Shown: piece by piece, positions 3,165 to 18,325 of the stretch
How positions within the stretch are numbered: the stretch's first letter is position 1
Layout of the letters: every line of letters begins with the position of its first letter
DNA from: a virus
Lineage: Duplodnaviria; Heunggongvirae; Uroviricota; Caudoviricetes
IMG/VR virus record: IMGVR_UViG_3300029337_000248
Location: 1 to 19,378 of that record
Length of the DNA: 19,378 nucleotides
Reading direction: 5' to 3' (one strand)
Position numbers and translations under genes: made by a program
The notes under the pieces: generated by a model
The model's input: only the letters and a program-made list of their open reading frames with translations
Told to the model about the DNA's origin: nothing
Databases searched by the model: none

Positions 3165-4265
3165 TCATTCCATTTCGAAATCATCAATCCTCACTTCAAG
3201 CTCCAGACTGGTCGTAAAACCGTTATCCGGGCTGACGGTATGTGTCAGAGTCGTAATGGTCCATTCCGCATCATCTATCGGCTGTTTAAAACCACTGACT
3301 TTCACTGGCATTTCCGTGTAGAGATCTGCCCGACCTTCCGCCAGTTGTAGCGAGAATGACGCAACGCCGCGTTGCAGGCGTTCCCACTGCATTTTCGCCG
3401 CTCGTTCGGCGTTGCTCCGGTTGGCATAAGTGCGATTAAGTACCAGCACGTTTTCATCCGTACCCACCAGGTAATCGCCCTGCTTCGCTTCCGGCTCTTT
3501 CGTCTGCTTCTTAGTCCTGCGCTTACGCTTCACCGTGGTGCTTTCTTTCTTCGAGGGTTCGCGAGTATGCAACCAGCTGGCAATTACGCCCGTGTAAGCT
3601 CCGCGATCTGCCAGGGTAAAGCGGTGACTGTCGCCGTCCTTACGTGTGATAGTGATCACCGGTAGTGGTTTACCGCTGGCGCTTTTACCCTGTCCCTGTC
3701 GGATGAATAACAGATTGCCATTTTTCACCGACGCAATAGCACCGTACTGGCGCGCCAGCCGCATCAGAAAACTGCCGTCACTCTCATTGGTCTGGTCTAA
3801 ATGTTCCACGGTTTTATCTGACAGGTCTTTACCCAATGCCATCTTCAGTTTGTGCCGCGCAGCTATTTCCTTCACCACTTCCCCAACGGTGGTCTTGTGC
3901 CACGACTTTTCACGGCGGGTATTCAGCGTTTCACGAAAATCAGCACTTCGCGCCCGGATAGTCAGGCGGTCCGGTGCGCCAGTGTGTTCAATCTCGTCCA
4001 CCGTGAATGTCCCTTTCGGGAAAAGCGGCTGCCCCTTCCAGCCCAGCGCCAGCGTAATGACCGCACCACGGCGCGGCAGCACGATTTTTCCGTCGGCGTC
4101 GTCCAGCTCCAGATCAAGCTGGTCCGCTTCAAAGCCCCGATTGTCCGTCAGCGTCAAACTCATCAGGCGGTTATCCAGCACAGTGGTGATATCCCTGCCC
4201 TCAATACTGATGCTGAATGCGGGAGTTTTGTTGCCTTTGTTAAGCAGTTCAGAGCTGAAATTCAC
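3165..4265 (-). CDS. D: Phage late control / tail protein D (P2 gpD family)
   Basis: 366 aa ORF, the last gene of the T-U-D order, read on the minus strand; size and sequence character fit P2 gpD (recalled ~387 aa). Confidence 0.85.
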   Translation of the reverse strand: MNFSSELLNKGNKTPAFSISIEGRDITTVLDNRLMSLTLTDNRGFEADQLDLELDDADGKIVLPRRGAVITLALGWKGQPLFPKGTFTVDEIEHTGAPDRLTIRARSADFRETLNTRREKSWHKTTVGEVVKEIAARHKLKMALGKDLSDKTVEHLDQTNESDGSFLMRLARQYGAIASVKNGNLLFIRQGQGKSASGKPLPVITITRKDGDSHRFTLADRGAYTGVIASWLHTREPSKKESTTVKRKRRTKKQTKEPEAKQGDYLVGTDENVLVLNRTYANRSNAERAAKMQWERLQRGVASFSLQLAEGRADLYTEMPVKVSGFKQPIDDAEWTITTLTHTVSPDNGFTTSLELEVRIDDFEME

Positions 4266-4747
4266 GACAGCAGCCCTCCCACCGTTTTACTGATATCGCT
4301 TAAAGCAGACGTTGCCATGTCCTGCAGATTATTCAGTTGCGCACTGAGATCACCGAACATATCGGACAGGGATTCATCCACCCGTTTGAGCGACAGGGTG
4401 AACTCAATCCGGCGCGGCATACCGTCGCGGAAAAACTCCGTTTTAGTCTGATTCAGTCCCTCAATCACATACATGCCATAAATCGTGCCGCTGCCTTCAA
4501 TCAGGGGCCATGCTTTCCCCTGTTCTGCCATCTGCTCCAGCGCCAGCAGCGACAGCCTGCCACCTGTTATCTCCGGCATAAGAACACCGGAAAGCGTCAG
4601 CATGTCGTTGTCCGGTCCCAGAAACTGCGTGGACGGACGTCGGTTTACCCGGCTGTTTGCCGCATGTCGCCAGTTGCGTTGATACTGCAGCTCCTGATAC
4701 GGCACGGTGCGCAGCATAAACACGTACAATCCCAGCACCATCATCAT
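4262..4747 (-). CDS. U: Phage tail protein U (P2 gpU family)
   Basis: 161 aa ORF whose stop overlaps the D start by 4 nt (ATGA), between the T fragment and D; size matches P2 gpU (~160 aa). Confidence 0.85.
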   Translation of the reverse strand: MMMVLGLYVFMLRTVPYQELQYQRNWRHAANSRVNRRPSTQFLGPDNDMLTLSGVLMPEITGGRLSLLALEQMAEQGKAWPLIEGSGTIYGMYVIEGLNQTKTEFFRDGMPRRIEFTLSLKRVDESLSDMFGDLSAQLNNLQDMATSALSDISKTVGGLLS

Positions 4748-5448
4748 GCGTCGTATCCCCCCTGATCGCTGTAGTTACTCCTGGCTTTTGCCTTCAACCT
4801 GCGTTCACGTTCATCAAGCTGGCGGGCCACCTCCCGCGCAATATCCTGCGCACTTTGTCCTGGCTGCGTCTGGATGATGATCTGCGTCGGTGCCTCAATC
4901 CTGTAAACGGGCGGCACAGTGGCTGCGCGACTCACAATTGCTTCTCCACCTTTCGCGGGAAGTGCCAAAGGGTGCAACGGTGGAAGCTCTGCTGGTGCGG
5001 CAGCAACGCCCATCATTCCGGCAACAACGGCAGCCAGTGCAGCTGTATTTCTCCGGCTAGTCACATTTGCCGGGCCGTTAACAATTTCCGGCCCGTTTTC
5101 ACCGACGATGCCAAACTGCCCGCGCGGGATATACCCGCCGCTGTCATACATCCCCGCAAAGCCATATCCCCATGATGGAAAACCACCCGATGGCATCATC
5201 ACTTTACCGTCTGCATTCACCGTCGCAGGTTGCTGACGCGTCACGCTTTCCGGCAGTTTTGCCTTTGCGGCCTCTTTACTGACAATGCCGAGCTTCTCCA
5301 GCAACCAGGAAACGCCGGATTTCAGGGAGTCCAGCGGATGCATGACCATATTCAGCCCTTCCGCCAGTGCCTCCCCGAATCTCCGCCCCATTGCCGCTGC
5401 ACTCTGCAGTTCGGCAGAGGTCGACTTAACGGGCGTCAACCGTAACAA
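4744..5448 (-). pseudogene. T: Tail tape-measure protein T, C-terminal fragment only (5' part deleted)
   Basis: 234 aa ORF directly upstream of U in the T-U-D order; P2 gpT is ~815 aa from memory, and the reading frame runs straight into the terminase fragment on the opposite strand with no E/E' or other tail genes upstream. Confidence 0.7.
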
Positions 5449-6865
5449 AGGCCCGCGCCGTCAGCCGGAAAAGAACGTTTTCACCGATGAACAGATTGAG
5501 AAGCTGGAAGAAATCTTCCATTCCTCCATGTTCAACTACCAGCGCCACTGGTGGGAAGCCGGAAAAACCAACCGCATCCGCAACCTGCTGAAGTCACGCC
5601 AGATCGGCGCGACCTTCTATTTTGCCCGTGAAGCCCTGATTGACGCCCTGCTAACCGGGCGTAACCAGATTTTCCTTTCCGCCAGCAAGGCTCAGGCCCA
5701 CGTCTTTAAGCAGTACATCATCGACTTCGCCAAAGAAGTGGAGGTGGAGCTGAAAGGCGATCCGATGGTGCTTCCTAACGGGGCCACGCTTTACTTCCTC
5801 GGCACCAATGCCCGCACTGCCCAGAGTTATCACGGCAACCTGTATCTGGATGAATATTTCTGGATACCGAAATTCCAGGAGCTGCGCAAAGTGGCTTCCG
5901 GTATGGCTATTCACAAGAAATGGCGACAAACCTATTTTTCCACGCCATCCAGCCTGACTCATAGTGCTTATCCGTTCTGGTCCGGTGCGCTGTTCAACCG
6001 TGGGCGCAACAAAGCCGATAAGGTGGACATCGACCTGTCCCACAGCAATCTGGCCCCCGGCCAGCTGTGCGCCGACGGGCAATACCGCCAGATAGTCACC
6101 GTGGAAGATGCGGTGCGCGGCGGCTGTAACCTGTTCGACCTTGACCAGTTGCGCATGGAGTACAGCCCGGACGAATACCAGAACCTGCTGATGTGCGAGT
6201 TTGTGGACGATCTCGCGTCCGTGTTTCCGCTCAGCGAGCTGCAGGCGTGCATGGTGGACAGTTGGGAAGTCTGGACCGACTTTCATGCTCTGGCCCTGCG
6301 CCCATTTGGCTGGCGCGAAGTGTGGATCGGTTATGACCCGGCAAAAGGTACGCAGAACGGCGACAGCGCCGGATGCGTGGTGGTGGCACCGCCAGCCGTG
6401 CCAGGCGGTAAGTTTCGCATTCTCGAGCGTCACCAGTGGCGCGGGATGGACTTCCGTGCCCAGGCGGACGCAATCAAAAAACTGACCGAGCAGTACAACG
6501 TGACCTACATCGGCATCGACTCAACCGGCGTTGGTCACGGGGTTTACGAGAACGTGAAAGCGTTCTTTCCTGCCGTCCGGGAGTTTGTCTACAACCCCAA
6601 CGTTAAAAACGCCCTGGTACTCAAGGCCTACGACATTATCAGCCACCGCCGTCTGGAGTTTGACGCCGGACACACCGACATAGCGCAGTCCTTTATGGCA
6701 ATCCGTCGCTCCACCACCGCCAGTGGCAACCGCCCGACCTATGAAGCCAGCCGCAGCGAAGAAGCCAGCCACGCCGATCTGGCATGGGCAACGATGCACG
6801 CACTGTTTAACGAACCGCTGCAGGGCGAATCCGCCAATACCAGCAATATTGTGGAGATTTTTTGA
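5449..6865 (+). pseudogene. P: Terminase large (ATPase/nuclease) subunit P, N-terminally truncated
   Basis: ORF 5285-6865 translates to a terminase-like protein (C-terminal nuclease-type segment ...YIGIDSTGVGHG...) and is followed by portal Q with a 4-nt overlap. Its first ~55 codons overlap the T fragment on the other strand, so the homologous part starts near 5450-5475, well short of the ~590 aa I recall for P2 gpP. Boundary is approximate. Confidence 0.7.
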
Positions 6866-7890
6866 TGGGAAAGAGTAAGAAAAACCGCGCAGCGGCGATG
6901 AATCAGATCCAGCATAAAAGCCAGACTTCAGCCGAAGCATTCAGCTTCGGCGATCCCGTTCCTGTTCTGGACCGTCGCGAACTGCTGGACTATGTGGAAT
7001 GCGTACAGATGGACCGCTGGTATGAGCCGCCTGTGAGTTTCGACGGCCTGGCGCGAACATTCCGCGCCGCCGTACACCACAGCTCACCGATTGCAGTAAA
7101 GTGCAACATTCTGACCAGCACCTATATCCCTCACCCACTGCTCAGCCAGCAGGCTTTTTCACGTTTTGTGCAGGACTATCTGGTATTTGGTAACGCCTAC
7201 CTGGAGAAACGCACGAACCGCTTCGGTGAAGTTATCGCCCTTGAACCTGCGCTGGCAAAATACACCCGACGCGGGTTAGACCTGGATACCTACTGGTTTG
7301 TGCAATACGGCATGACTACGCAGCCGTATCAGTTCACGAAAGGCAGCATCTTTCATCTGATGGAACCGGATATCAACCAGGAGATCTACGGCCTGCCCGG
7401 TTATCTTTCTGCCATTCCGTCAGCCCTGCTCAACGAGTCCGCCACGTTGTTCCGCCGTAAGTATTACATCAACGGCAGCCATGCAGGCTTCATCATGTAC
7501 ATGACCGATGCCGCGCAGAATCAGGAGGATGTGAACAACCTCCGCAACGCGATGAAAAGCGCCAAAGGTCCAGGCAACTTCCGCAACCTGTTTATGTACT
7601 CACCTAACGGCAAAAAAGACGGGCTTCAGATCATCCCATTGTCAGAAGTCGCGGCGAAGGATGAATTTCTTAACATCAAGAACGTGAGTCGGGATGACAT
7701 GATGGCAGCGCACCGCGTGCCGCCGCAAATGATGGGGATTATGCCGAATAATGTTGGGGGGTTTGGGGATGTGGAGAAAGCAAGTAAAGTGTTTGTACGA
7801 AACGAACTTATACCATTACAAAAACGCTTAGGAGAGATAAATGAATGGCTTGATAAAAAAATAATAGAATTTGAAATATATTCATTCTGA
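6862..7890 (+). CDS. Q: Portal (capsid vertex) protein Q
   Basis: 342 aa ORF immediately downstream of P with overlapping stop/start, matching the P-then-Q order and ~344 aa size of P2 gpQ. Confidence 0.85.
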   Translation: MMGKSKKNRAAAMNQIQHKSQTSAEAFSFGDPVPVLDRRELLDYVECVQMDRWYEPPVSFDGLARTFRAAVHHSSPIAVKCNILTSTYIPHPLLSQQAFSRFVQDYLVFGNAYLEKRTNRFGEVIALEPALAKYTRRGLDLDTYWFVQYGMTTQPYQFTKGSIFHLMEPDINQEIYGLPGYLSAIPSALLNESATLFRRKYYINGSHAGFIMYMTDAAQNQEDVNNLRNAMKSAKGPGNFRNLFMYSPNGKKDGLQIIPLSEVAAKDEFLNIKNVSRDDMMAAHRVPPQMMGIMPNNVGGFGDVEKASKVFVRNELIPLQKRLGEINEWLDKKIIEFEIYSF

Positions 7891-7947
7891 TACATTTACA
7901 TAACTTAATAGGACATCCATCGCTCAACACATAATAAGAAAAAAACT

Positions 7948-7965
7948 ACGGCACTACCGTGCCGT
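7948..7965 (-). terminator. Intrinsic terminator for the three-gene cargo operon (possibly bidirectional with Q)
   Basis: Stem ACGGCAC / GTGCCGT with loop TACC; in the minus-strand reading the hairpin is followed by AGTTTTTTTCTTATT, and it lies 10 nt past the stop of the 7975-8472 gene. Confidence 0.6.
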
Positions 7966-7974
7966 AACAAATTA

Positions 7975-8472
7975 TCACTTTAAGAATTTTTTCTGATAAG
8001 ACTCATCAATTAGAGATTTAATTATTTTCGCCCTTTTTGACACTAATACACTAATTCTTGTCCTTTGACTTTTATCATACTCCTGTGCTTTTTCAATATT
8101 AGATGTAGCATCTTTGAATAAATCAGCAATCAAAGGTTTATAGTCACCTTCGATATTAATGCGTTGTTTTAGATGATTCAACCACCGCTCGGTCTCCGCA
8201 AGAAGTGCTGTTATCTCATTTTGAAATGACATTGCATCAATTTCTTTTGAATCTCCCGGTATCCAAAACTTTCTTGATGCAGATTCAATTTCCTTTAAAT
8301 TATCTGAAACATTTTTTACAATTGCCCATGTTTCACTCCTCTTTTGCAACGCACGGGAGTTTCTATAAACAAAAACCCAACCAATCAAGGCTGTTAGAAT
8401 TGCAATCACACCTGAACTAGCAAGGTATTGTAATAACCGCAGATAAACCGGAAGTTCATCCATGAACATCAC
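7975..8472 (-). CDS. Single-pass membrane protein of unknown function (candidate effector), third gene of the cargo operon
   Basis: 165 aa ORF; one predicted transmembrane helix near the N-terminus (LLQYLASSGVIAILTALIGWVFVY), then a charged, likely helical domain; start overlaps the stop of the upstream gene by 4 nt; AT-rich codon usage. Confidence 0.75.
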   Translation of the reverse strand: MMFMDELPVYLRLLQYLASSGVIAILTALIGWVFVYRNSRALQKRSETWAIVKNVSDNLKEIESASRKFWIPGDSKEIDAMSFQNEITALLAETERWLNHLKQRINIEGDYKPLIADLFKDATSNIEKAQEYDKSQRTRISVLVSKRAKIIKSLIDESYQKKFLK

Positions 8473-8789
8473 TCCTTTTTAGCATCAGAAATATATCCCC
8501 ATATACTATCCTTGAGGAAATCCAAATCAGTAAATATTTTTAATTTTTTCCTAATTATAGCTTTATCTATATTATTTGTTCTATAAAGTCCACCAAACGC
8601 CTCTTCCAAGAATGAAGAACCATAACCCATAGCACCATCAAGGTACACGTGCACCTCATCATAATCTTGGATGGCTTTCAAAAGATACTTTTCACGGAAA
8701 CGTTGTCCATTATCAGGACCATCCTCATCATAGCGGCCATAGGGAACATCTGAAAAATCTTCAGCAACATGTATCTCTTTGATTTTCAT
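8469..8789 (-). CDS. Small acidic protein, candidate STAS-like (anti-sigma-antagonist-like / DUF4325-like) partner, second gene of the cargo operon
   Basis: 106 aa ORF translationally coupled (4-nt overlaps) to both neighbours. Size and a ...LDGAMGYGSSFLEEAF... segment with adjacent serines resemble the phosphorylatable region of STAS/SpoIIAA-like proteins. The family call is by eye and tentative. Confidence 0.7.
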   Translation of the reverse strand: MKIKEIHVAEDFSDVPYGRYDEDGPDNGQRFREKYLLKAIQDYDEVHVYLDGAMGYGSSFLEEAFGGLYRTNNIDKAIIRKKLKIFTDLDFLKDSIWGYISDAKKE

Positions 8790-9853
8790 TCAGCACCTCT
8801 CAAACTTACATTCCATTGAATAAGGGTTCCACCTATGGAGTATGGCAGATCAAATTTATCTTCAACATTATTTTCAGCATCATAAGAATATCGTCCCATT
8901 CCACTAAAAATATGTAACTGCCCCTCAGGGTTATCTACAACATACCTTTTCATATCAGGTAATCCTTTACCATGCTTCTGACTATTCATTCTTGTCTCAC
9001 CATACTGTACAGCCGCGAATATTTTATCAGAATCCGTCTTAGGATTAAATATCTGAGCGATAAATGTGAAAAAGTCTTTTTTAACCAATGTAACTGGGAT
9101 ACCTTCTCCCATATCATACACCATCAAAAATAGTTGTTCTTCGACTTTGTGTGCCAATATCCACCATCTTTTACCAATGTCCTCAATAAATTCAGAGAAC
9201 TGTTCTTCATTTGAATACGCATGTAGACCAACATTGCTAATAGATTCAGTTAAGGCTGCATATAATTTCACACCATCCGAAGCGGAAATCTTACCTTCAT
9301 AAATGGTATCTTTTATATAACGTAGAATATTTTTAATTTTTTGTCTTGCTTCGGCACTTTCATGATCATCTCTAGTTTTGCCTGCAACAGCGGAAACAAT
9401 TTCCATTGAATTAAGCTTATCTGCAGCTATACGCTGAAACCCTGTAATCCCCCAAATACCACATATTTTAAACCAGTTATTTGCCCTGGATGAACCGCAC
9501 GTAGTAATAGAAATTATATTTTTATCTTTTGTTTGCCTTTGTAAAAAGTCAATATGTGCATACAATACGATTACTGCACATGCTTTCAGAGATTTTGTAT
9601 TTCTGAAATCTATTAAAATTTTCTCACCATCATTGATGTAATCTCTGATTAAAGTGATAAACTCTATAAATAGTTTGTAATTTTTAGTATTAAATAAGTC
9701 CAATGACGCAGGCGCGGGTATTCTCACACGAGAGAATACCCGCATGGGCTGTAGCATCCGTCTTCCACCAGAAAGCTTTCTTGACTCCCGCTTCGCAATC
9801 TTCCTTGCTCTGATCAAAGAATGTTCAATTTGTTCTTCAGTTAGCCGCTTCAT
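8786..9853 (-). CDS. GHKL-type (histidine-kinase-like / anti-sigma-kinase-like) ATPase with an unassigned ~190 aa N-terminal domain, first gene of the cargo operon
   Basis: C-terminal half carries Bergerat-fold motifs in order: N-box TESISNVGLHAY (E-x3-N-x3-H-[GA]-Y as in SpoIIAB/RsbW), G1 box YDMGEGIP (DxGxG), G2 box HGKGLPD, G3 GGTLIQW. Start placed at the internal Met (MKRLTEEQ...) because GAGGAAAGG precedes it; the longer ORF reaches 9898. Confidence 0.75.
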   Translation of the reverse strand: MKRLTEEQIEHSLIRARKIAKRESRKLSGGRRMLQPMRVFSRVRIPAPASLDLFNTKNYKLFIEFITLIRDYINDGEKILIDFRNTKSLKACAVIVLYAHIDFLQRQTKDKNIISITTCGSSRANNWFKICGIWGITGFQRIAADKLNSMEIVSAVAGKTRDDHESAEARQKIKNILRYIKDTIYEGKISASDGVKLYAALTESISNVGLHAYSNEEQFSEFIEDIGKRWWILAHKVEEQLFLMVYDMGEGIPVTLVKKDFFTFIAQIFNPKTDSDKIFAAVQYGETRMNSQKHGKGLPDMKRYVVDNPEGQLHIFSGMGRYSYDAENNVEDKFDLPYSIGGTLIQWNVSLRGAE

Positions 9854-10000
9854 ATCCTTTCCTCGATAGTTGTTGAAGCTTATCAGTTCACGCAACAACT
9901 ACAAACATCTACCTGCTATCTTAAAGCAACAATTTGAAAGAACATTGAAAATCATAGTATCTGTTTGTAAACAAACGACTGTTTCTATACCTTGCGCGCG

Positions 10001-10019
10001 CTCGTATCCCCGCCACGCC
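10001..10019 (-). other. cos-like cohesive-end site
   Basis: Minus-strand reading GGCGTGGCGGGGATACGAG; the first 12 nt match the cohesive-end sequence I recall for 186 (GGCGTGGCGGGGAAAGCAT) and P2 (GGCGAGGCGGGGAAAGCAC). Located in the A-to-Q interval where cos is expected. Confidence 0.6.
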
Positions 10020-10050
10020 TGCCCGCTTTATGTAGTAGTTTTCATGCACC

Positions 10051-10151
10051 TGCATGACATGAGCAAAAGCCCGCCAGTTCTGGCATGTCTTAGCCAAACC
10101 GATCCTCAAACGATCATGCGAACCCATGCAGCATAGACATGCATGACATGA
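10051..10151. repeat. Direct repeats of TGCATGACATGA (10051-10062 and 10140-10151) flanking cos, within a CATG-rich cluster
   Basis: Two exact 12-bp copies 89 bp apart, read directly from the sequence; TGGCATGTC also occurs twice (10081-10089 and 10252-10260). Confidence 0.7.
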
Positions 10152-10201
10152 AAATCGGTCAAACCTTGAAACCAGTCATAAATATGAGCCAGCTTAATAC
10201 A

Positions 10202-10387
10202 CACTAAATAGCTGCGTCTAATACTGCTACACCTGCCGTTTACTGACATGTGGCATGTCGCGTAAGGACAACATACTGTAGGCCAGATACAGCAGGATCA
10301 GGCGAAGAAAACGGCCCCACGCCTTACCCAGCAAGGGCCAAGGGCTAACCGAAAGTGGAGCATTATTCCGCGCAGTTATTTAGTGTC
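10202..10387. repeat. ~186 bp segment bounded by 16-bp inverted repeats (ACACTAAATAGCTGCG ... CGCAGTTATTTAGTGT, 15/16 match)
   Basis: Inverted repeat read directly from the sequence; the interior is non-coding, relatively GC-rich and holds a small hairpin (GACATG-tgg-CATGTC). Nature unknown: structured RNA or MITE-like relic. Confidence 0.5.
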
Positions 10388-10492
10388 AGCTCTTTTGAGC
10401 TAAAATCAAGTTTCAACATGAGGGTCTGTGCAGGCTTTCTCATCCCGCTAATTTATACAGCACACCTATATGGCTATGAGTTTGTCATGCCC

Positions 10493-10524
10493 GCTAATCC
10501 TGTTAGGATTAGCCTTGTTTTTTT
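10493..10524 (+). terminator. Terminator-like hairpin immediately upstream of the lipoprotein gene
   Basis: Perfect 9-bp stem GCTAATCCT / AGGATTAGC with loop GTT, followed by CTTGTTTTTTT; ends 17 nt before the ATG at 10542. Confidence 0.5.
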
Positions 10525-10541
10525 ACGATTGGGATAGGGAT

Positions 10542-11348
10542 ATGAAGAAATTAACTGGCGTAATTGCTTTTGCTCTGCTGCTTACTGCTTGTGACAAACC
10601 GAAGATCGATGCATCAAGCGATCAGTCGATGAAAGAGTCCATTCAAAAAGTAAGAGAGTCCTTACCTGCAGATAAAAAAGCTCAGTTTGATGATGCAGTT
10701 AAAGTCGTTGCCTTTAGCCAAATCAACATGAGAGAGCTAATGCAGGCTGGAACGTCTTCTGGGGACGTCTACGAAACAAAAATTAAGTCAGCGTTGGAAG
10801 GTAAAACTGGTGATGAGGTTATAAATTACGCACAAACTATTCGCCTTGAGCGTGAGAAGAGAGAGAAAGAACAGGCTCTGCAAGAAATAAAAGAACTGGA
10901 AGCCAAACAAACCTCTGCAACACAGGCTGCGGAAAAAATGAAAGCCTTCAAGGTCGAACGTTCCCGTTTTTATTTCCAGAAAGAGGATTACGGCAATGAT
11001 CAGCCAATTCTGGATATTAGCGTTGAAAACGGAACAGACAAAGCGGTTGCCAGAGTATTCTTCAAAGGAGTTATTGCCAGCCCAGGAAGAAGCGTCCCTT
11101 GGTTCTCTGACGTCTTCAACTATAAAATTTCTGGAGGTCTGGAACCAGGTGAGAAAGCCAACTGGAAATTAGCCCCTAATAGATACTCTGATTGGGGAAA
11201 ACTTAAAGTTCCGGCTGATGCTATATTTACCGTCACAGTCATTGGCCTTGAAGACGCAGATGGGAAATCGATCTATGGTGACGCCGAGTTTTCAGAACGC
11301 GATGCTGACAGACTGAATCAACTTAGAGATAAGTACCTTTCTAAATAA
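10542..11348 (+). CDS. Lipoprotein of unknown function (~268 aa), candidate superinfection-exclusion or lysogenic-conversion protein
   Basis: Start chosen at MKKLTGVIAFALLLTAC with a lipobox (LLTAC); the track ORF starts upstream at 10470 but that part covers the terminator hairpin. Central lysine/glutamate-rich predicted coiled coil, then a C-terminal globular region. Confidence 0.75.
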   Translation: MKKLTGVIAFALLLTACDKPKIDASSDQSMKESIQKVRESLPADKKAQFDDAVKVVAFSQINMRELMQAGTSSGDVYETKIKSALEGKTGDEVINYAQTIRLEREKREKEQALQEIKELEAKQTSATQAAEKMKAFKVERSRFYFQKEDYGNDQPILDISVENGTDKAVARVFFKGVIASPGRSVPWFSDVFNYKISGGLEPGEKANWKLAPNRYSDWGKLKVPADAIFTVTVIGLEDADGKSIYGDAEFSERDADRLNQLRDKYLSK

Positions 11349-11456
11349 TCAAAATTAAAGCTACTTCAGCATAGTCCCTGAGAATATATATCAGGGACTA
11401 CCAAATCACGGCAGATACCCCTTAGTTAAATAATGCTAAACGCTTAGAAAGAGACC

Positions 11457-11756
11457 ATGAAACGTATAACTTTCTCCTTTACGTTAGTAGCAATCATCAT
11501 AGCCTTAGCTGGATGTGCTTTGCCAGATAAAGACGGCGACTTCGGAGCTTATGTTCATGCCTGTCAGCAATATGCATACGGAAAATCCTATGCCTTTGAG
11601 AATAGAGACTTCGCGTATAAGGTCTGTAAGGACGCGGCGAAACTGTGGAGTGAAGAAGTTCCTGGCTATATCATCAGGCAAATTCAACTACATCCTGAAA
11701 TACCCAGCGAAGAAATTAAATATGCAGCCATGGCCGGCTCTTTGGGTAACAACTAA
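11457..11756 (+). CDS. Small lipoprotein of unknown function (99 aa)
   Basis: Signal peptide with lipobox (IALAGC), mature ~80 aa with 4 Cys; co-directional with the upstream lipoprotein gene. Confidence 0.7.
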   Translation: MKRITFSFTLVAIIIALAGCALPDKDGDFGAYVHACQQYAYGKSYAFENRDFAYKVCKDAAKLWSEEVPGYIIRQIQLHPEIPSEEIKYAAMAGSLGNN

Positions 11757-11770
11757 ATCAACTTATGAGA

Positions 11771-11793
11771 AAGGGGCTTAATGCCCCTTTTCG
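11771..11793. terminator. Bidirectional intrinsic terminator between convergent genes
   Basis: Stem GGGGC / GCCCC with loop TTAAT; flanked by T-rich sequence on the + strand (TTTTCGG) and, more weakly, on the minus strand (TTTCTCAT). Confidence 0.6.
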
Positions 11794-11823
11794 GTTCCCT
11801 TATCAAGTCCTAACGAAACAAGC

Positions 11824-12010
11824 TCAACTGATTACATCCATCGACCTACTGTATTCATGGCTTCGAATTTTCGCCATCAACTCATCAGTCAATTCAGAAA
11901 CCCACTGCAGAGCTAGCCCCTTCTCTTCATCACTACACTCACTAGCCGCTACAAGCTTAAGAAAAAAATCAATGCGCTGGAGCTTCAAAGACTCCAAAAA
12001 ATAGTCCTGC
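11824..12010 (-). CDS. Small hypothetical protein (62 aa) downstream of replication gene A
   Basis: Strong RBS (AGGAGGAAAG) directly before ATG (MQDYFLESLK...); the track ORF extends to 12114 but lacks an RBS at its first Met. Sits where P2 carries orf91/tin/old. Confidence 0.6.
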
Positions 12011-12165
12011 ATCTTTCCTCCTATAACACCATACGCAATACTGTACATATAACCACTGTTTATATTTACAGTATATAATAATCTTACTGATGTAAAACGT
12101 TTTTTTACGTTCATCAGCCTGATATGCCTGGTATTATTAAGAGCACGAATTGTTAACCCGCGTGA

Positions 12166-14580
12166 TTAATACAGGTTCCGCCACTTATCATCTTCCTGCA
12201 AACGCTGGTTCCGATAGAAGATACGCAGGCCTGCTCCTGACGGAATACTGCCACCGCAAAGGAGCAAATCGACCTCTTTCTCGCTGCCATCAAATCCTCT
12301 GGACTTCAGTTCATAGACGAGCTGCTGACGCTGATACTCTGTAATTCGCTGTTTGTAGTCTTTACGCCGTTTCGGTTTAACCAGGCGCAATCTTGCTGCC
12401 AGTTCCCGGCGCTCTTTTTTGCTCATACTGTGCAGGTAATCGTGCAATTCCTTGTCATCCATGCAGGTAATGTCCGTTCTGGTATCCCCATCTGCTGATT
12501 CATCTTTCTCATGTTGGTTCAAATTTTCAGCAAGGGGACAGTTATTGCCACGAGTCCAAGGGGCGCAAGCGCCCTGGTCGGCTGCCGCCTCCTGAACGTC
12601 AACGGCTTTACGAACCATTTTCCACTTCACTGCATGAGTGCAGATCTTGCCCTCTGCAATGGGTGACCAGATGCCATAAATACGAATGCCGTGATCGCCA
12701 TAGGCGGTCGGCTCTTCGTTGATTTCATAAGCGGTTCTGATGAGGTGATATTTACGGGGAACCAGTACGCCGCCCTGTTTCATGATGTAGGTGGCAAAAC
12801 AACCAGCATCAGCAGCAGCCAGAATGGCATCAAGACGCGGGTTATCCAGTACCGGCGCACCTGCTTTTTTGTCACCCTGTTGCCTTGCCGCCTGACCAGC
12901 CAGCAAGCGAAGTTCACGGTAAGCCTGACGCCCCGGAATACCAAAGAAGCGGAATTGCTGAACACGATGCAGAGACGCCCAGGCATTCACGTATTCAGCG
13001 TTATCACGCAGAGATTTACCCGTTTCCTTGCTGATCTCGCCAACCAGACCACGACCGTCAATGTTCTTACTGATATATTTCGCGATGTAGCTTGTCGGCG
13101 TTCCTTTGCGCGGGTTAATCAACTCAGACTTAAAGCGCGGCCCAGTGTTATTGCCCAGCTCCTCGCGGTCTTCACGGATGGCAAACTTACGCAGTAATGC
13201 AGTGATGGCACGGCGGTCTTTTTTGCGCATGAAACACAACAGGTGCCAGTGAACTGTGCCATCATGATGCGGCTCAGCCACCCGCACGCCATACCAGCGC
13301 AACCCGGCTTTGTGCATCGCCTTACGAAATGCAGCAAACATGCCGACCAGATAATCGCTGCTTTGTCTTACCGTCGCGTTTGTCCAGGTCGGGTTTGGTC
13401 TGCCGTTATTTAGCGTGGAATGGAAACGCGACGGACAGGTGATAGTGTAGAAAACGGCGCAGTCACCGCGCATTTCCGCGATAAGCTCCAGACCTTTAAC
13501 ACAGGCCATCATCTCATTGCGGCGATGCGCAGGGTTGCTGCTGCTGGCGTTTACCACATCCTCCATGTCCAGCGTGTCGCCGTCTTCGTTCACCAGTTCA
13601 TGAGAACGGAAAAACTCCAGCGACTTACGGCGCTGCTCACGTTTATGCATCACGGCTTCATAGCTGACATAAGGAGATGCTTTTTTGCTGACCAGGCAAA
13701 CAGCGCGCAACTGCTCTTCCCGCCATTCGCAACGCATCTTCCATAATTTCCGATACCACCAGTCGGCGCACAACATACGCGCCAGCGAACCCGGAATGAG
13801 TTCATAGGGCACGGGTTTGCGGCGGTTTCTTTTCCGACGGAGTTGCTCAAACGCAGGTGGGATGACATCCAGACGCAGGGTTTCCGCTGCCACCTTTTCC
13901 CATGTCTTGCGGATTTCTTCTGGCTTAACGTCATCGGTGGCATACAAATCACCACAAGCTGCATCAAGGCACATACTCATATGCGCAGCTACCAGGGTGG
14001 ACAGGCGTTTCACCTGATCCTGACTCATTTCAGGCAGGATCAGCAGGCCGTCCAGCCCTTCATGGCTTGCCATAAAGCGAAAAGATGCAGATAGCTGACT
14101 GTCGCGTACATGCTCCAGTCGTTCCAGACATGGCTTAATCGTCTCACGTAAATAGCGGGAATAAGCCTTTGGCCTGCCCAGGCTGCTGAAGTATTCAATA
14201 CGTTGCATCAGCGGCTTGCTGATATGGGAAGGCTGGGCGTTGACGTCCGCCAGAATGACCATGTCTGAATTAAAACGCTGCTGCTCATGCGCCAGCTTTG
14301 CCCGGCTAATGAGCTTATCCTGCTCCATTTCGCGCTGGACAGGATCACGTGATTCATTAAAGAAATAACGCTCCCAGACCTGATCACTCAGTGCCTCGCG
14401 GCGCAACTGTTCCTGCTCGTTATCGGCAGCGTACAGAGTGATCAGGTTTGAAAGCGTAGAAACCGGCGCAACTTCCGCCGGGTCCAGATAAGGGTTAATG
14501 GCCTTTTTCGGGCTGTTCCATGAGAATGCTGCGGCAGCCTCGTTAAAGCCGCAGCAGTTGTTCATATCGGCATGACTCAT
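12166..14580 (-). CDS. A: Replication initiation protein A (rolling-circle replication endonuclease, P2 gpA / 186 A family)
   Basis: 804 aa ORF containing the rolling-circle active-site tyrosine motif ([16 protein letters not shown]); position at the end of the early operon matches P2/186. Confidence 0.9.
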
Positions 14581-17354: not shown

Positions 17355-17930
17355 GTGACCATGAATTTGGAGAAAGGCGGACGAGGCGCCATAGAGCGCA
17401 TGGTAGAAGCTTATGGATTCAAGACTCGACAGGCGTTGTGCGATCATTTAGGAATCTCTAAAAGTACACTCGCCACACGCTACATGCGTGACTCATTCCC
17501 AGCAGAATGGGTAATCCAGTGCGCCCTTGAAACAGGCACCTCGCTTAATTGGCTCACAACCGGGCATGGTTCAAAGCAAACTTCAGGTAATACAAATACT
17601 ATGGAAGTTGCTAAATATGTATTATCTGATGGGGCCTTGTGTGAAGACGGTTTTTATATTTTCGATAGAGAATTTCTACCGTCGGCATTCAAGAATCTTT
17701 TTGTAATCACAGATAATAATTCTGAATTTATTTGTGATAAGGAATTTGATGATATACGTGATGGTAAATGGGTAATAAGTATTGATGGCGAAATAACGAT
17801 CCGTGACATTACTCGTTTACCCGGTGGAAGAATCTTCGTCGAGGGTGGAAACAGAGCCTTCGAATGTAAGATAGAAGACATTGAAATAATTGGTAAAATT
17901 ATAAGTTTAACAGTCAAGTATGTTAAATAG
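17355..17930 (+). CDS. cI: CI-like immunity repressor (186 CI family)
   Basis: 191 aa (186 CI is ~192 aa) with an N-terminal HTH region (QALCDHLGISKSTLATRYMR); divergent from apl and upstream of int; GGAG RBS. Confidence 0.85.
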   Translation: MTMNLEKGGRGAIERMVEAYGFKTRQALCDHLGISKSTLATRYMRDSFPAEWVIQCALETGTSLNWLTTGHGSKQTSGNTNTMEVAKYVLSDGALCEDGFYIFDREFLPSAFKNLFVITDNNSEFICDKEFDDIRDGKWVISIDGEITIRDITRLPGGRIFVEGGNRAFECKIEDIEIIGKIISLTVKYVK

Positions 17931-17945
17931 TACCGGGAGGAAATT

Positions 17946-18137
17946 ATGCTTGGTAAGGTATTTTTTGTGGTTTTGTCATGTTCTTTGTTATTAAACCCAC
18001 TAGCTACCTATGCTAGAAATTATCCCTGCTCAGGGAAAAAGGGAGGTGTTTCTCACTGTACCTCTGATGGCAAATTCGTTTGCAATGATGGAACTATTAG
18101 TAAATCCAAAAAAATCTGTACTAAAAACTCACGATAA
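17946..18137 (+). CDS. Small secreted cysteine-rich protein (63 aa precursor) between cI and int
   Basis: Strong RBS (GGGAGG, 7 nt spacing); N-terminal signal peptide ([23 protein letters not shown]) and a ~40 aa mature part with 4 Cys. Confidence 0.7.
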
Positions 18138-18325
18138 CTTTTGCTTTTATATCTGCGCCTAAAATAAAAATGAGCCACAGGTTAACCGCAAAAGTTACAT
18201 GATCACATAGCAAAAAGAATAGCCTACTTCATTATGGCTTCAGTGAGATGTATGGTCGCAGGATTTCATACATTGACACTGGTTATACATACAGTAAAAA
18301 TGCTCTCTATTGGAGGGCATTTTTT

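What the first reader, a model, noticed from the sequence alone, without database searches (positions are those of the whole stretch)
7900..9900. Sharply AT-rich cargo block inside an otherwise balanced-GC prophage
By eye the three-gene operon and its flanks are markedly AT-rich (roughly one third G+C on sampled stretches; an estimate, not computed) while the flanking portal, terminase and replication genes look close to half G+C. The boundaries coincide with the Q stop/terminator on one side and the cos region on the other, consistent with horizontally acquired cargo.
Basis: seen in the sequence. Interest (0 to 1): 0.45.

Follow-up and report, generated by a model that had tools for sequence, protein, structure and literature searches.

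The report
AT-rich defence-hotspot cargo in P2-like prophage
The AT-rich block is real and is the swappable accessory slot next to the packaging site of a P2/186-like E. coli prophage; it carries an untested three-gene kinase / STAS-protein / membrane-protein operon that is probably an anti-phage system related to the recently described VapKSC.

Summary
Observation confirmed. Window 7891-9990 has 35.4% G+C, against 54.8% for the capsid/terminase/portal genes and 52.7% for replication gene A. GC3 is 0.27-0.29 against 0.57-0.72. The step far exceeds block shuffles.

The block lies between portal gene Q and the cos site (19-mer at 10001-10019). This is the known gpQ-gpA hotspot of P2-like phages. 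Related E. coli prophages carry other AT-rich cargo in the same slot.

Three corrections:
- The left edge lies about 115 nt inside Q.
- The hairpin after Q terminates the cargo operon, not Q.
- Lower G+C (42.5%) resumes beyond cos up to A.

The cargo is old. A Klebsiella prophage has the same operon in the same slot, diverged about as much as the backbone.

The operon encodes:
- K: a STAS domain plus an anti-sigma-type GHKL serine kinase.
- S: a DUF4325 STAS-like protein with an invariant Ser58.
- C: one transmembrane helix plus a four-helix bundle.

K and S are homologous to VapK and VapS of the validated VapKSC system, but C replaces the PIN toxin. The triad is conserved across phyla and recurs in prophages and defence islands. 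The inferred mechanism is a phospho-switch that releases a membrane effector; it is untested. The hotspot is ordinary; the system is a new variant of a known kind.

The parts
6862..7890 (+). Portal gene Q (backbone anchor). Its last ~115 nt (7776-7890) are AT-rich and belong to the variable zone.
   Evidence: Pfam Phage_portal, E 5e-17. The last 120 nt are 29% G+C. Homology to other E. coli Q genes ends at window 7774-7886. The C-terminal ~22 residues differ with each cargo.
7945..7968 (-). Intrinsic terminator of the K-S-C operon: a 10-bp stem followed by T7 on the minus strand.
   Evidence: Terminator scan. It lies 7 nt after the stop codon of C. On the + strand no T-run follows the stem, so it is not a good terminator for Q.
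7975..8463 (-). Gene C: 162 aa, with one N-terminal transmembrane helix and a cytoplasmic four-helix bundle. Proposed effector.
8469..8789 (-). Gene S: 106 aa STAS-like protein (DUF4325). Proposed phospho-acceptor and switch.
   Evidence: Pfam DUF4325, E 3.5e-12. Ser58 in GYGS58SFLEEAFGG is invariant in 25 diverse homologues. VapS belongs to the same Pfam family, E 2.7e-17. hhalign places Ser58 opposite VapS Ser48.
8786..9853 (-). Gene K: 355 aa, with a basic N-terminal helix, a STAS-like domain and a GHKL (anti-sigma-factor type) kinase domain. Proposed sensor kinase.
9854..9991 (.). AT-rich (34%) non-coding stretch between gene K and cos. Presumed promoter region of the operon.
   Evidence: Composition. 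No site with at least 9 of 12 sigma-70 consensus matches was found here, so the promoter is inferred, not located.
9992..10143 (.). Conserved cos region. The 19-nt cohesive-end equivalent GGCGTGGCGGGGATACGAG is the reverse complement of 10001-10019.
   Evidence: This stretch is conserved at 88-91% in Fels-2, SopEPhi, Yersinia and Klebsiella P2-like phages. The same core is found in L004-L007. It matches the cos stretch in the P2/P4 inserts cloned by Rousset et al.. G+C is 0.539.
10144..12165 (.). Second accessory zone, on the far side of cos (G+C 0.425). It holds a DUF6694 lipoprotein (10542-11348 +), a 99-aa lipoprotein-like ORF (11457-11756 +) and a 62-aa ORF (11824-12012 -).
   Evidence: Composition. 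Pfam DUF6694, E 4e-22. PHROGs of unknown function. RefSeq annotation. Other prophages carry DinI-like genes here.
12166..14580 (-). Replication gene A (backbone anchor on the right of the hotspot).
   Evidence: Pfam Phage_GPA, E 6e-128. G+C is 0.527.

Best explanation
The AT-rich block is the cos-proximal accessory slot of a 186/P2-like E. coli prophage, between portal Q and the cos site. It is a module that is exchanged between related phages by recombination. One junction lies in the last ~100 nt of Q and the other at the conserved cos core. That part is shown.

The cargo is one minus-strand operon, K-S-C, with its own terminator.
- K is a STAS-domain plus anti-sigma-factor-type GHKL serine kinase.
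- S is a small DUF4325 STAS-like protein with an invariant serine at the start of helix 2.
- C is a single-pass inner-membrane protein with a cytoplasmic four-helix bundle.

The mechanism is inferred by homology with VapKSC. In the lysogen, unphosphorylated S would hold C inactive. On infection by another phage, K would be switched on and phosphorylate S at Ser58. Phospho-S would let go of C, and C would then damage or depolarise the membrane. This would abort the infection and protect the prophage-carrying population.

The trigger is unknown. It is probably not sensed exactly as in VapK/CapK, because the ssDNA-stacking aromatic residue is a serine here.
For: Slot and exchange:
- Gene order P, Q, operon, cos, A.
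- The hotspot is described in PMC9122126.
- Different AT-rich cargo sits in the same slot of prophages with about 90% identical Q genes.
- The Q tail co-varies with the cargo.

Operon unity:
- Overlapping or abutting genes and one terminator.
- K is immediately followed by S in all 43 loci examined. A C homologue follows in 41 of the 42 with a candidate third ORF, in Gamma- and Alphaproteobacteria, Verrucomicrobiota, Planctomycetota and Bacteroidota.

Kinase and substrate:
- The ATP-binding motifs are invariant.
- S is DUF4325 with invariant Ser58.
- VapS is DUF4325.
- K profile against VapK: 93% probability, E 2.4e-7. Ser58 aligns with VapS Ser48.
- VapKSC works by kinase-driven release of a toxin from the STAS protein and protects about 100-fold against phage Bas42 (PMC13373217).

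Defence context:
- The same triad is in the P4 satellite hotspot, as 'system 69' with 1 TM in protein 3.
- It is also in Klebsiella and Serratia P2-like prophages, same slot.
- It lies beside type III CBASS plus type I R-M plus an integrase in Wohlfahrtiimonas.
- It lies beside the CI repressor of a Pseudomonas lambdoid prophage and of Francisella phage KIRK.
- It is lower in G+C than its flanks in 40 of 40 loci.
Against: - No experiment exists for this triad. It is listed but was not cloned by Rousset et al..
- PADLOC 2.0 and NCBIfam have no model for any of the three proteins.
- C has no recognisable toxic or pore-forming domain. Its fold matches only generic helical bundles. Its role as effector is an inference from its position in the operon.
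- No S-C or K-S complex could be modelled here.
- The S profile against VapS is weak on its own: 26% probability, E 7e-4.
- VapK Phe54 aligns with Ser88 of K, so the ssDNA trigger may not apply.
- The P4-hotspot homologue of S has Arg at the Ser58 position and Ser at the next one. The acceptor residue is therefore not certain across the whole family.
- No PP2C-type phosphatase is encoded nearby.
Confidence: 0.6

Rival explanations
1. The triad is a membrane-level superinfection-exclusion or lysogenic-conversion device. C would act at the inner membrane, for example by blocking DNA entry or altering envelope physiology, without killing the cell. K-S would only tune its activity.
For: C is a small single-pass membrane protein with no enzymatic domain. 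That architecture is typical of prophage exclusion proteins (established knowledge). The triad sits next to repressor genes in lambdoid prophages, where exclusion genes are often found. The neighbouring cargo beyond cos encodes lipoproteins.
Against: The homologous K-S pair in VapKSC controls a toxin. A kinase switch is more elaborate than constitutive exclusion would need. The triad also occurs in chromosomal defence islands outside prophages.
Confidence: 0.15
2. The triad is a toxin-antitoxin-like addiction or stress module. It would stabilise the prophage or respond to host stress such as DNA damage, with no direct role against other phages.
For: VapKSC is described as toxin-antitoxin-like, and CapK/VapK respond to DNA damage. 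The module has been stably inherited with the prophage backbone between E. coli and Klebsiella.
Against: It occupies a slot whose contents are swapped frequently, and the contents tested so far are often anti-phage. It co-localises with CBASS and R-M. Toxin-antitoxin-like behaviour and defence are not mutually exclusive. VapKSC itself protects against a phage.
Confidence: 0.1
3. K-S is a CapK/CapS-type transcriptional controller of neighbouring genes, not part of an effector system.
For: CapK/CapS are homologous STAS-GHKL kinase and STAS pairs that regulate adjacent immune operons.
Against: S is only 106 aa and is a bare DUF4325 domain with no winged-helix DNA-binding domain. K has a basic helix where CapK has an HTH. 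The only conserved downstream gene is C, and a terminator follows it.
Confidence: 0.05
4. The low G+C marks a recent import from a low-G+C donor, the simplest reading of 'horizontally acquired cargo'. It would not be a long-standing property of the module.
For: There is a sharp step of about 19 percentage points, a GC3 of 0.28 and a low codon index.
Against: The Klebsiella prophage copy has diverged about as much as the flanking terminase and portal genes: 77-80% against 82-84%. It is still 37% G+C. The operon is below its flanks in 40 of 40 loci, whatever the host G+C from 41% to 72%. The other cargoes in this slot are also AT-rich.
Confidence: 0.1

Closest known systems
VapKSC (Chambers et al., EMBO J 2026, PMC13373217)
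   Same: It is a three-gene operon in the same order: a STAS+GHKL kinase, then a small DUF4325 STAS protein with a conserved serine, then a third gene. K is homologous to VapK (hhalign 93%, E 2.4e-7). S and VapS are in the same Pfam family, and Ser58 aligns with Ser48.
   Different: The third gene is a 162-aa single-pass membrane protein with a helical bundle, not a PIN (VapC) nuclease. K has an extra basic N-terminal helix. The ssDNA-contacting Phe54 of VapK is Ser88 here. S lacks the long C-terminal helix that VapS inserts near the VapC active site. Sequence identity is low: K 22% by BLASTP, E 8e-4.
P2-like phage gpQ-gpA (cos-proximal) hotspot, e.g. old/tin of P2 (Rousset et al. 2022, PMC9122126)
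   Same: Same slot, same adjacency to cos, same turnover of cargo between related prophages. The domain arrangement 'hypothetical + hypothetical + DUF4325', with different protein accessions, appears in their tables of P2 loci.
   Different: The paper lists the arrangement without a predicted function and did not test it. Its validated three-hypothetical-protein system ('hp + hp + hp') consists of unrelated, larger proteins.
P4 satellite hotspot 'system 69' (HATPase_c | DUF4325 | 1-TM protein; Rousset Table S1)
   Same: All three proteins are homologous: K 28% identity, E 3e-31; S 49%; C 27%, E 5e-4. It also sits next to cos.
   Different: It is carried by the satellite rather than the helper phage and is a distant branch. 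Its S has Arg-Ser where this one has Ser58-Ser59.
CapK-CapS regulators of CBASS/Bub/Thoeris operons (same 2026 paper)
   Same: A STAS+GHKL kinase that phosphorylates a STAS-domain partner on a helix-2 serine.
   Different: CapS carries a winged-helix domain and is a repressor, whereas S here has no DNA-binding domain. CapK has an HTH and a Trp68 ssDNA sensor.
SpoIIAB-SpoIIAA and RsbW-RsbV partner-switching modules
   Different: No sigma factor or PP2C phosphatase partner is encoded nearby. The kinase is fused to its own STAS domain. The output is a membrane protein.

Membership tests
P2-like phage cos-proximal (gpQ-gpA) accessory/defence hotspot | Located between portal gene Q and replication gene A of a P2-family prophage | tested here: met
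   Phage_portal at 6862-7890 and Phage_GPA at 12166-14580. The full 186-like gene order is seen in E. coli HH194M.
P2-like phage cos-proximal (gpQ-gpA) accessory/defence hotspot | Directly adjacent to the cos packaging site | tested here: met
   The cos core is at 10001-10019, 148 nt from the start codon of K. The sequence matches the cos stretch in Rousset's cloned inserts.
P2-like phage cos-proximal (gpQ-gpA) accessory/defence hotspot | Content varies among prophages with closely related backbones | tested here: met
   Four relatives carry four other cargoes in the slot. Only 20-35 of about 1250 matching E. coli records carry this operon.
P2-like phage cos-proximal (gpQ-gpA) accessory/defence hotspot | Cargo confers resistance to other phages | not testable with these tools
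   This needs plaque assays. The arrangement was not among the systems cloned by Rousset et al..
VapKSC | Kinase with a STAS domain followed by a GHKL kinase domain | tested here: met
VapKSC | Small STAS (DUF4325) protein with a conserved Ser/Thr at the start of helix 2 | tested here: met
   DUF4325, E 3.5e-12. Ser58 is invariant in 25 sequences. It aligns with VapS Ser48. Caveat: the P4-hotspot homologue has Arg-Ser at this position.
VapKSC | Third gene encodes a VapC-like PIN nuclease toxin | tested here: not met
   C is a transmembrane helix plus a four-helix bundle with no PIN or other Pfam domain. The same C family follows K-S in 41 of 42 loci with a candidate third ORF.
VapKSC | Aromatic ssDNA-stacking residue in the kinase STAS domain (VapK F54 / CapK W68) | tested here: not met
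   In the hhalign alignment F54 falls on Ser88 of K. The column holds S, I, V or L in the family.
VapKSC | Kinase-dependent release of the effector, and phage protection | not testable with these tools
   This requires biochemistry and infection assays.
CapK-CapS transcriptional controllers | STAS protein carries a winged-helix DNA-binding domain | tested here: not met
   S is 106 aa, and its only Pfam match is the DUF4325 domain (residues 27-85); no DNA-binding domain was detected.
CapK-CapS transcriptional controllers | Pair lies upstream of a multi-gene immune operon that it regulates | tested here: not met
   Only the 162-aa gene C follows, then a terminator and the convergent Q gene.
SpoIIAB/RsbW anti-sigma partner switch | GHKL serine-kinase fold plus a STAS antagonist | tested here: met
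SpoIIAB/RsbW anti-sigma partner switch | Cognate sigma factor and PP2C phosphatase encoded in the locus | tested here: not met
   No such ORF or Pfam hit lies between Q and A.
Rousset 'hp + hp + hp' (three hypothetical proteins) P2-hotspot system | Homology to its three proteins | tested here: not met
   The published proteins run to roughly 230-350 residues as printed, against 355, 106 and 162 aa here. By eye they show none of the kinase or STAS motifs found in K and S. No alignment was computed.

The most novel reading that the evidence does not exclude
K-S-C is a widespread, so far unnamed anti-phage system, with about 1,400 kinase clusters at 50% identity across several phyla. In it, a STAS phospho-switch gates a minimal single-pass membrane effector instead of a nuclease, and the kinase senses a signal other than ssDNA. 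That would show that the VapK/CapK-type kinase-STAS pair is a general, modular trigger wired to different killing devices. It would also show that the pair is carried by P2, P4 and lambdoid prophages alike.
Probability: 0.4. Interest if true: 0.6.

Novelty: new variant of a known kind. Interest (0 to 1): 0.45.

Why it matters
The compositional step itself is textbook. It marks the known defence hotspot of P2-like phages and adds nothing new.

What sits in the slot is more useful. It is a compact, conserved three-gene module whose kinase and STAS parts now have a characterised relative (VapKSC, 2026). Its output is a different, unstudied membrane protein.

If it is confirmed as a defence system, it would extend the kinase-STAS phospho-switch from one toxin class to a modular family. 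It would give a small, tractable membrane effector to study. It would also explain a recurrent group of 'hypothetical' genes in P2, P4 and lambdoid prophages of Escherichia, Klebsiella, Serratia and Pseudomonas and of Francisella phage KIRK.

Two further observations bear on how hotspot cargo is swapped and why it stays AT-rich. The last ~22 codons of the portal gene travel with the cargo. And the cargo keeps its low G+C while co-diverging with the phage backbone.

Tried and rejected
- PADLOC 2.0 and NCBIfam scans of all six hotspot ORFs gave no hits.
- PDB sequence searches with K, with S and with the S profile gave nothing meaningful. The VapS/CapS entries are probably too recent or too distant.
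- Rousset's 'three hypothetical proteins' system was considered and rejected, because its proteins are different.
- A CapKS-type regulator was rejected, because S has no DNA-binding domain.
- The perfect 12-nt inverted repeat inside K (9714-9743) was checked as a possible operator or attenuator. It is not conserved in the Klebsiella copy and was dropped.
- The sigma-70 scan found no convincing promoter upstream of K.
- Literature searches by RefSeq protein accession and for STAS + anti-sigma + transmembrane + phage defence found nothing.
- A true E. coli CAI was not computed, because no reference set was at hand. A codon index relative to the window's own core phage genes was used instead.
Full report
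OBSERVATION

The sliding G+C profile drops from 0.51-0.62 (3200-7800) to 0.31-0.39 between about 7800 and 10000. It recovers briefly at 10000-10400.

Exact values:

| Segment | G+C |
|---|---|
| 7891-9990 | 0.354 |
| Structural block 3165-7890 | 0.548 |
| cos core 9992-10143 | 0.539 |
| 10144-12165 | 0.425 |
| Gene A | 0.527 |

Third-position G+C of the three cargo genes is 0.27-0.29. For the capsid, scaffold, terminase, portal and A genes it is 0.57-0.72. A codon index built on the window's own core phage genes gives 0.54-0.61 for the cargo and 0.64-0.78 for the core.

The best two-change-point model (7776 and 9697) improves the log-likelihood by 111. Thirty shuffles of 100-nt blocks reached at most 26.6.

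It is the deepest and longest trough in the window but not the only one. The immunity region at 17601-18000 is 0.343.

WHERE IT IS

Pfam identifies:
- terminase P (5285-6865, +)
- portal Q (6862-7890, +)
- replication protein A (12166-14580, -)

The window is 99.9% identical to a 186/P2-like prophage in E. coli HH194M and other strains.

Stretch 9992-10143 is the only part of the block's surroundings conserved in Fels-2, SopEPhi, Yersinia and Klebsiella P2-like phages. It contains CTCGTATCCCCGCCACGCC at 10001-10019. The reverse complement, GGCGTGGCGGGGATACGAG, is the counterpart of the P2/P4 cohesive-end sequence seen in the inserts cloned by Rousset et al..

This Q-cos-A interval is the hotspot of exchangeable, frequently anti-phage cargo described for P2-like phages (PMC9122126; also 10.64898/2026.02.27.708500).

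BOUNDARIES AND EXCHANGE

About 1,200 E. coli records carry a Q gene roughly 90% identical to this one. Their homology stops at window positions 7774-7886, inside the 3' end of Q.

Four such prophages were opened. They hold other cargo in the slot:
- HIRAN + hypothetical
- a KAP P-loop NTPase
- DprA
- three other hypotheticals

All are on the minus strand and all are at 0.34-0.42 G+C, beside a 0.55-0.56 backbone.

The last ~22 residues of the portal protein differ with each cargo and are encoded by AT-rich DNA. The unit that is swapped therefore includes the tail of Q.

The hairpin at 7945-7968 is followed by a T-run only on the minus strand. It is the terminator of the cargo operon rather than of Q.

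On the other side of cos lies a second accessory zone (0.425 G+C). It carries a DUF6694 lipoprotein, a 99-aa lipoprotein-like ORF and a 62-aa ORF.

AGE OF THE CARGO

A Klebsiella pneumoniae P2-like prophage carries the same three genes in the same slot. The alignment is continuous from the terminase gene to cos.

Nucleotide identity between the two prophages:

| Segment | Identity |
|---|---|
| P | 84% |
| Q | 82% |
| C | 77% |
| S | 80% |
| K | 80% |
| cos | 86% |

The operon there is still 37% G+C. A Serratia liquefaciens P2-like prophage has it too, with K at 58% amino-acid identity.

In 40 of 40 loci from several phyla, the operon is lower in G+C than its flanks, by 0.088 on average. Host flanks range from 41% to 72% G+C.

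The cargo is compositionally foreign and mobile. But the low G+C is a persistent property of the module, not the trace of a recent import.

WHAT THE OPERON ENCODES

Gene limits follow the homologues and RefSeq:
- K: 8786-9853, 355 aa
- S: 8469-8789, 106 aa
- C: 7975-8463, 162 aa

Protein S. It is a DUF4325 'STAS-like' protein (E 3.5e-12). In 25 diverse homologues the motif GYGS58SFLEEAFGG is almost unchanged and Ser58 is invariant. This serine is at the start of helix 2, the position of the phospho-serine in SpoIIAA-type STAS proteins (established knowledge).

Protein C. It has one N-terminal hydrophobic helix followed by a run of basic residues, which places the rest in the cytoplasm. A confidently modelled four-helix bundle follows (pLDDT 86). 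It has no Pfam family, and its structural matches are generic helical bundles.

RELATION TO KNOWN SYSTEMS

A 2026 paper (PMC13373217) describes two related systems.

CapK/CapS consists of a STAS-GHKL kinase activated by ssDNA. The kinase phosphorylates a STAS-wHTH repressor.

VapKSC is a three-gene anti-phage operon. VapK phosphorylates the small STAS protein VapS on Ser48, which releases the PIN toxin VapC.

I recovered the VapK and VapS sequences from the paper's deposited AlphaFold files and compared them:
- VapS is itself a DUF4325 protein (E 2.7e-17).
- The K-family profile aligns with VapK over both domains (hhalign 93%, E 2.4e-7, 256 columns).
- BLASTP of K against VapK gives 22% identity, E 8e-4.
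- The S profile aligns only weakly with VapS (E 7e-4), but it puts Ser58 on Ser48.

The kinase-substrate pair is therefore a relative of VapK-VapS. Two defining features of VapKSC are not met. The third gene is not a PIN nuclease. The ssDNA-stacking Phe54 of VapK corresponds to Ser88 here.

The operon is also not a CapKS regulator, because S has no DNA-binding domain.

THE TRIAD IS A CONSERVED UNIT

A scan of one genome per species found 41 loci, in Gamma- and Alphaproteobacteria, Verrucomicrobiota, Planctomycetota and Bacteroidota. With two metagenomic loci added, the counts are:
- K is followed at once by a DUF4325 gene in 43 of 43 loci.
- A third ORF of about 135-200 aa follows in most of them, usually with an N-terminal hydrophobic segment.
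- 41 of the 42 candidate third ORFs are homologous to C by an iterated profile search, at 29-138 bits.

The kinase family has 1,371 clusters at 50% identity with E <= 1e-30.

PHROGs holds families for K (phrog_3364, E 9e-55), S and C. All are of unknown function.

CONTEXT POINTS TO DEFENCE

- Rousset's tables list 'hypothetical + hypothetical + DUF4325' among P2-hotspot arrangements.
- They also list 'HATPase_c | DUF4325', with '1 TM in protein 3', as system 69 of the P4-satellite hotspot. It has nine occurrences and no function is proposed.
- Its three proteins are homologous to K, S and C.
- Neither arrangement was among the systems they cloned.
- In Wohlfahrtiimonas the triad lies beside a type III CBASS operon, a type I methylase and an integrase.
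- In a Pseudomonas putida lambdoid prophage and in Francisella phage KIRK it lies next to the CI repressor.
- In Dyella it lies next to a serine recombinase.

MECHANISM

Shown:
- an intact kinase active site
- a STAS substrate-like partner with an invariant serine
- a membrane protein inherited with them
- homology of the first two to a pair whose phospho-switch mechanism has been demonstrated

Inferred:
- S keeps C inactive.
- Infection activates K.
- K phosphorylates S at Ser58.
- Freed C damages the membrane and aborts infection.

Unknown:
- the trigger
- whether C kills or merely excludes
- whether S or K contacts C

I put about 0.95 on the hotspot-cargo reading and about 0.45 on the specific phospho-switch-to-membrane-effector defence model. 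The stated overall confidence of 0.6 reflects both.

The rivals are membrane exclusion, an addiction or stress module, and a transcriptional controller. They are listed with their refuting tests.

VERDICT

The finding as written is correct and ordinary. An AT-rich step at the cos-proximal hotspot of a P2-like prophage is expected.

The cargo is an uncharacterised but widespread variant of the newly described kinase-STAS defence architecture. It is worth a direct test. Interest is moderate.

Noticed in passing
window 7776-7890 (3' end of Q); L004-L007, L049, L051: The last ~22 codons of the portal gene (after ...PLQKR) are AT-rich and differ with each cargo in the slot. The recombination junction lies inside Q, so the portal C-terminal tail travels with the cargo.
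   Followed up: partly
window 10144-12165: A second accessory zone lies on the far side of cos (G+C 0.425). It carries a DUF6694 lipoprotein (10542-11348 +), a 99-aa lipoprotein-like ORF (11457-11756 +) and a 62-aa ORF (11824-12012 -). All match PHROGs of unknown function. Other prophages have DinI-like genes here.
   Followed up: partly
window 9714-9743: A perfect 12-nt inverted repeat with a 6-nt spacer (GCGGGTATTCTC acacga GAGAATACCCGC) lies inside the 5' part of gene K. It is unexpectedly long for 2.9 kb but is only partly preserved in the Klebsiella copy, so it is probably not functional.
   Followed up: yes
window 10043-10062 / 10132-10151 and 10201-10240 / 10347-10386: There is a direct repeat, CATGCACCTGCATGACATGA (85% second copy), in the cos region. 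A 40-nt imperfect inverted repeat (78%) lies just right of cos. They may be terminase-recognition elements.
   Followed up: no
window 17401-18200: The immunity region around the CI repressor gene (17361-17930) is also AT-rich: 0.343 at 17601-18000, and CI has GC3 of 0.35. The prophage is therefore not uniformly balanced outside the flagged block.
   Followed up: no
L005 (E. coli EC19) 8842-8873: In this relative the cos core falls inside the annotated 5' part of the KAP NTPase gene. The partner HsdR-N-domain gene lies on the other side of cos. Either the start is mis-annotated or this is a two-gene arrangement that straddles the packaging cut.
   Followed up: no
H41 (E. coli NCTC11121); L050 3606-4826: There are insertion sequences within the hotspot. 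An IS1 lies between Q and gene C in NCTC11121, and an ISL3 transposase lies next to gene A in a Klebsiella copy.
   Followed up: no
L052 (Wohlfahrtiimonas) 3225-9870; L053 (P. putida) 5685-8784: In L052 the K-S-C triad sits immediately after a type III CBASS operon (Cap17-like, SMODS, HORMA, AAA, RNase_T), near HsdM and an integrase. In L053, a lambdoid prophage, a shorter K (292 aa) with S and C sits next to the S24 repressor.
   Followed up: partly
window 8469-8789 vs phrog_5816: S matches positions 341-440 of a 441-position PHROG profile. In some phages the DUF4325 domain is therefore the C-terminal part of a much larger protein, possibly a kinase-STAS fusion.
   Followed up: no
L006 (E. 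coli MS 85-1) 8090-9184: The DprA cargo is followed by about 1.1 kb with no annotated gene, where the partner phosphoribosyltransferase of the validated DprA-PRTase system would be expected. It may be a decayed or unannotated gene.
   Followed up: no
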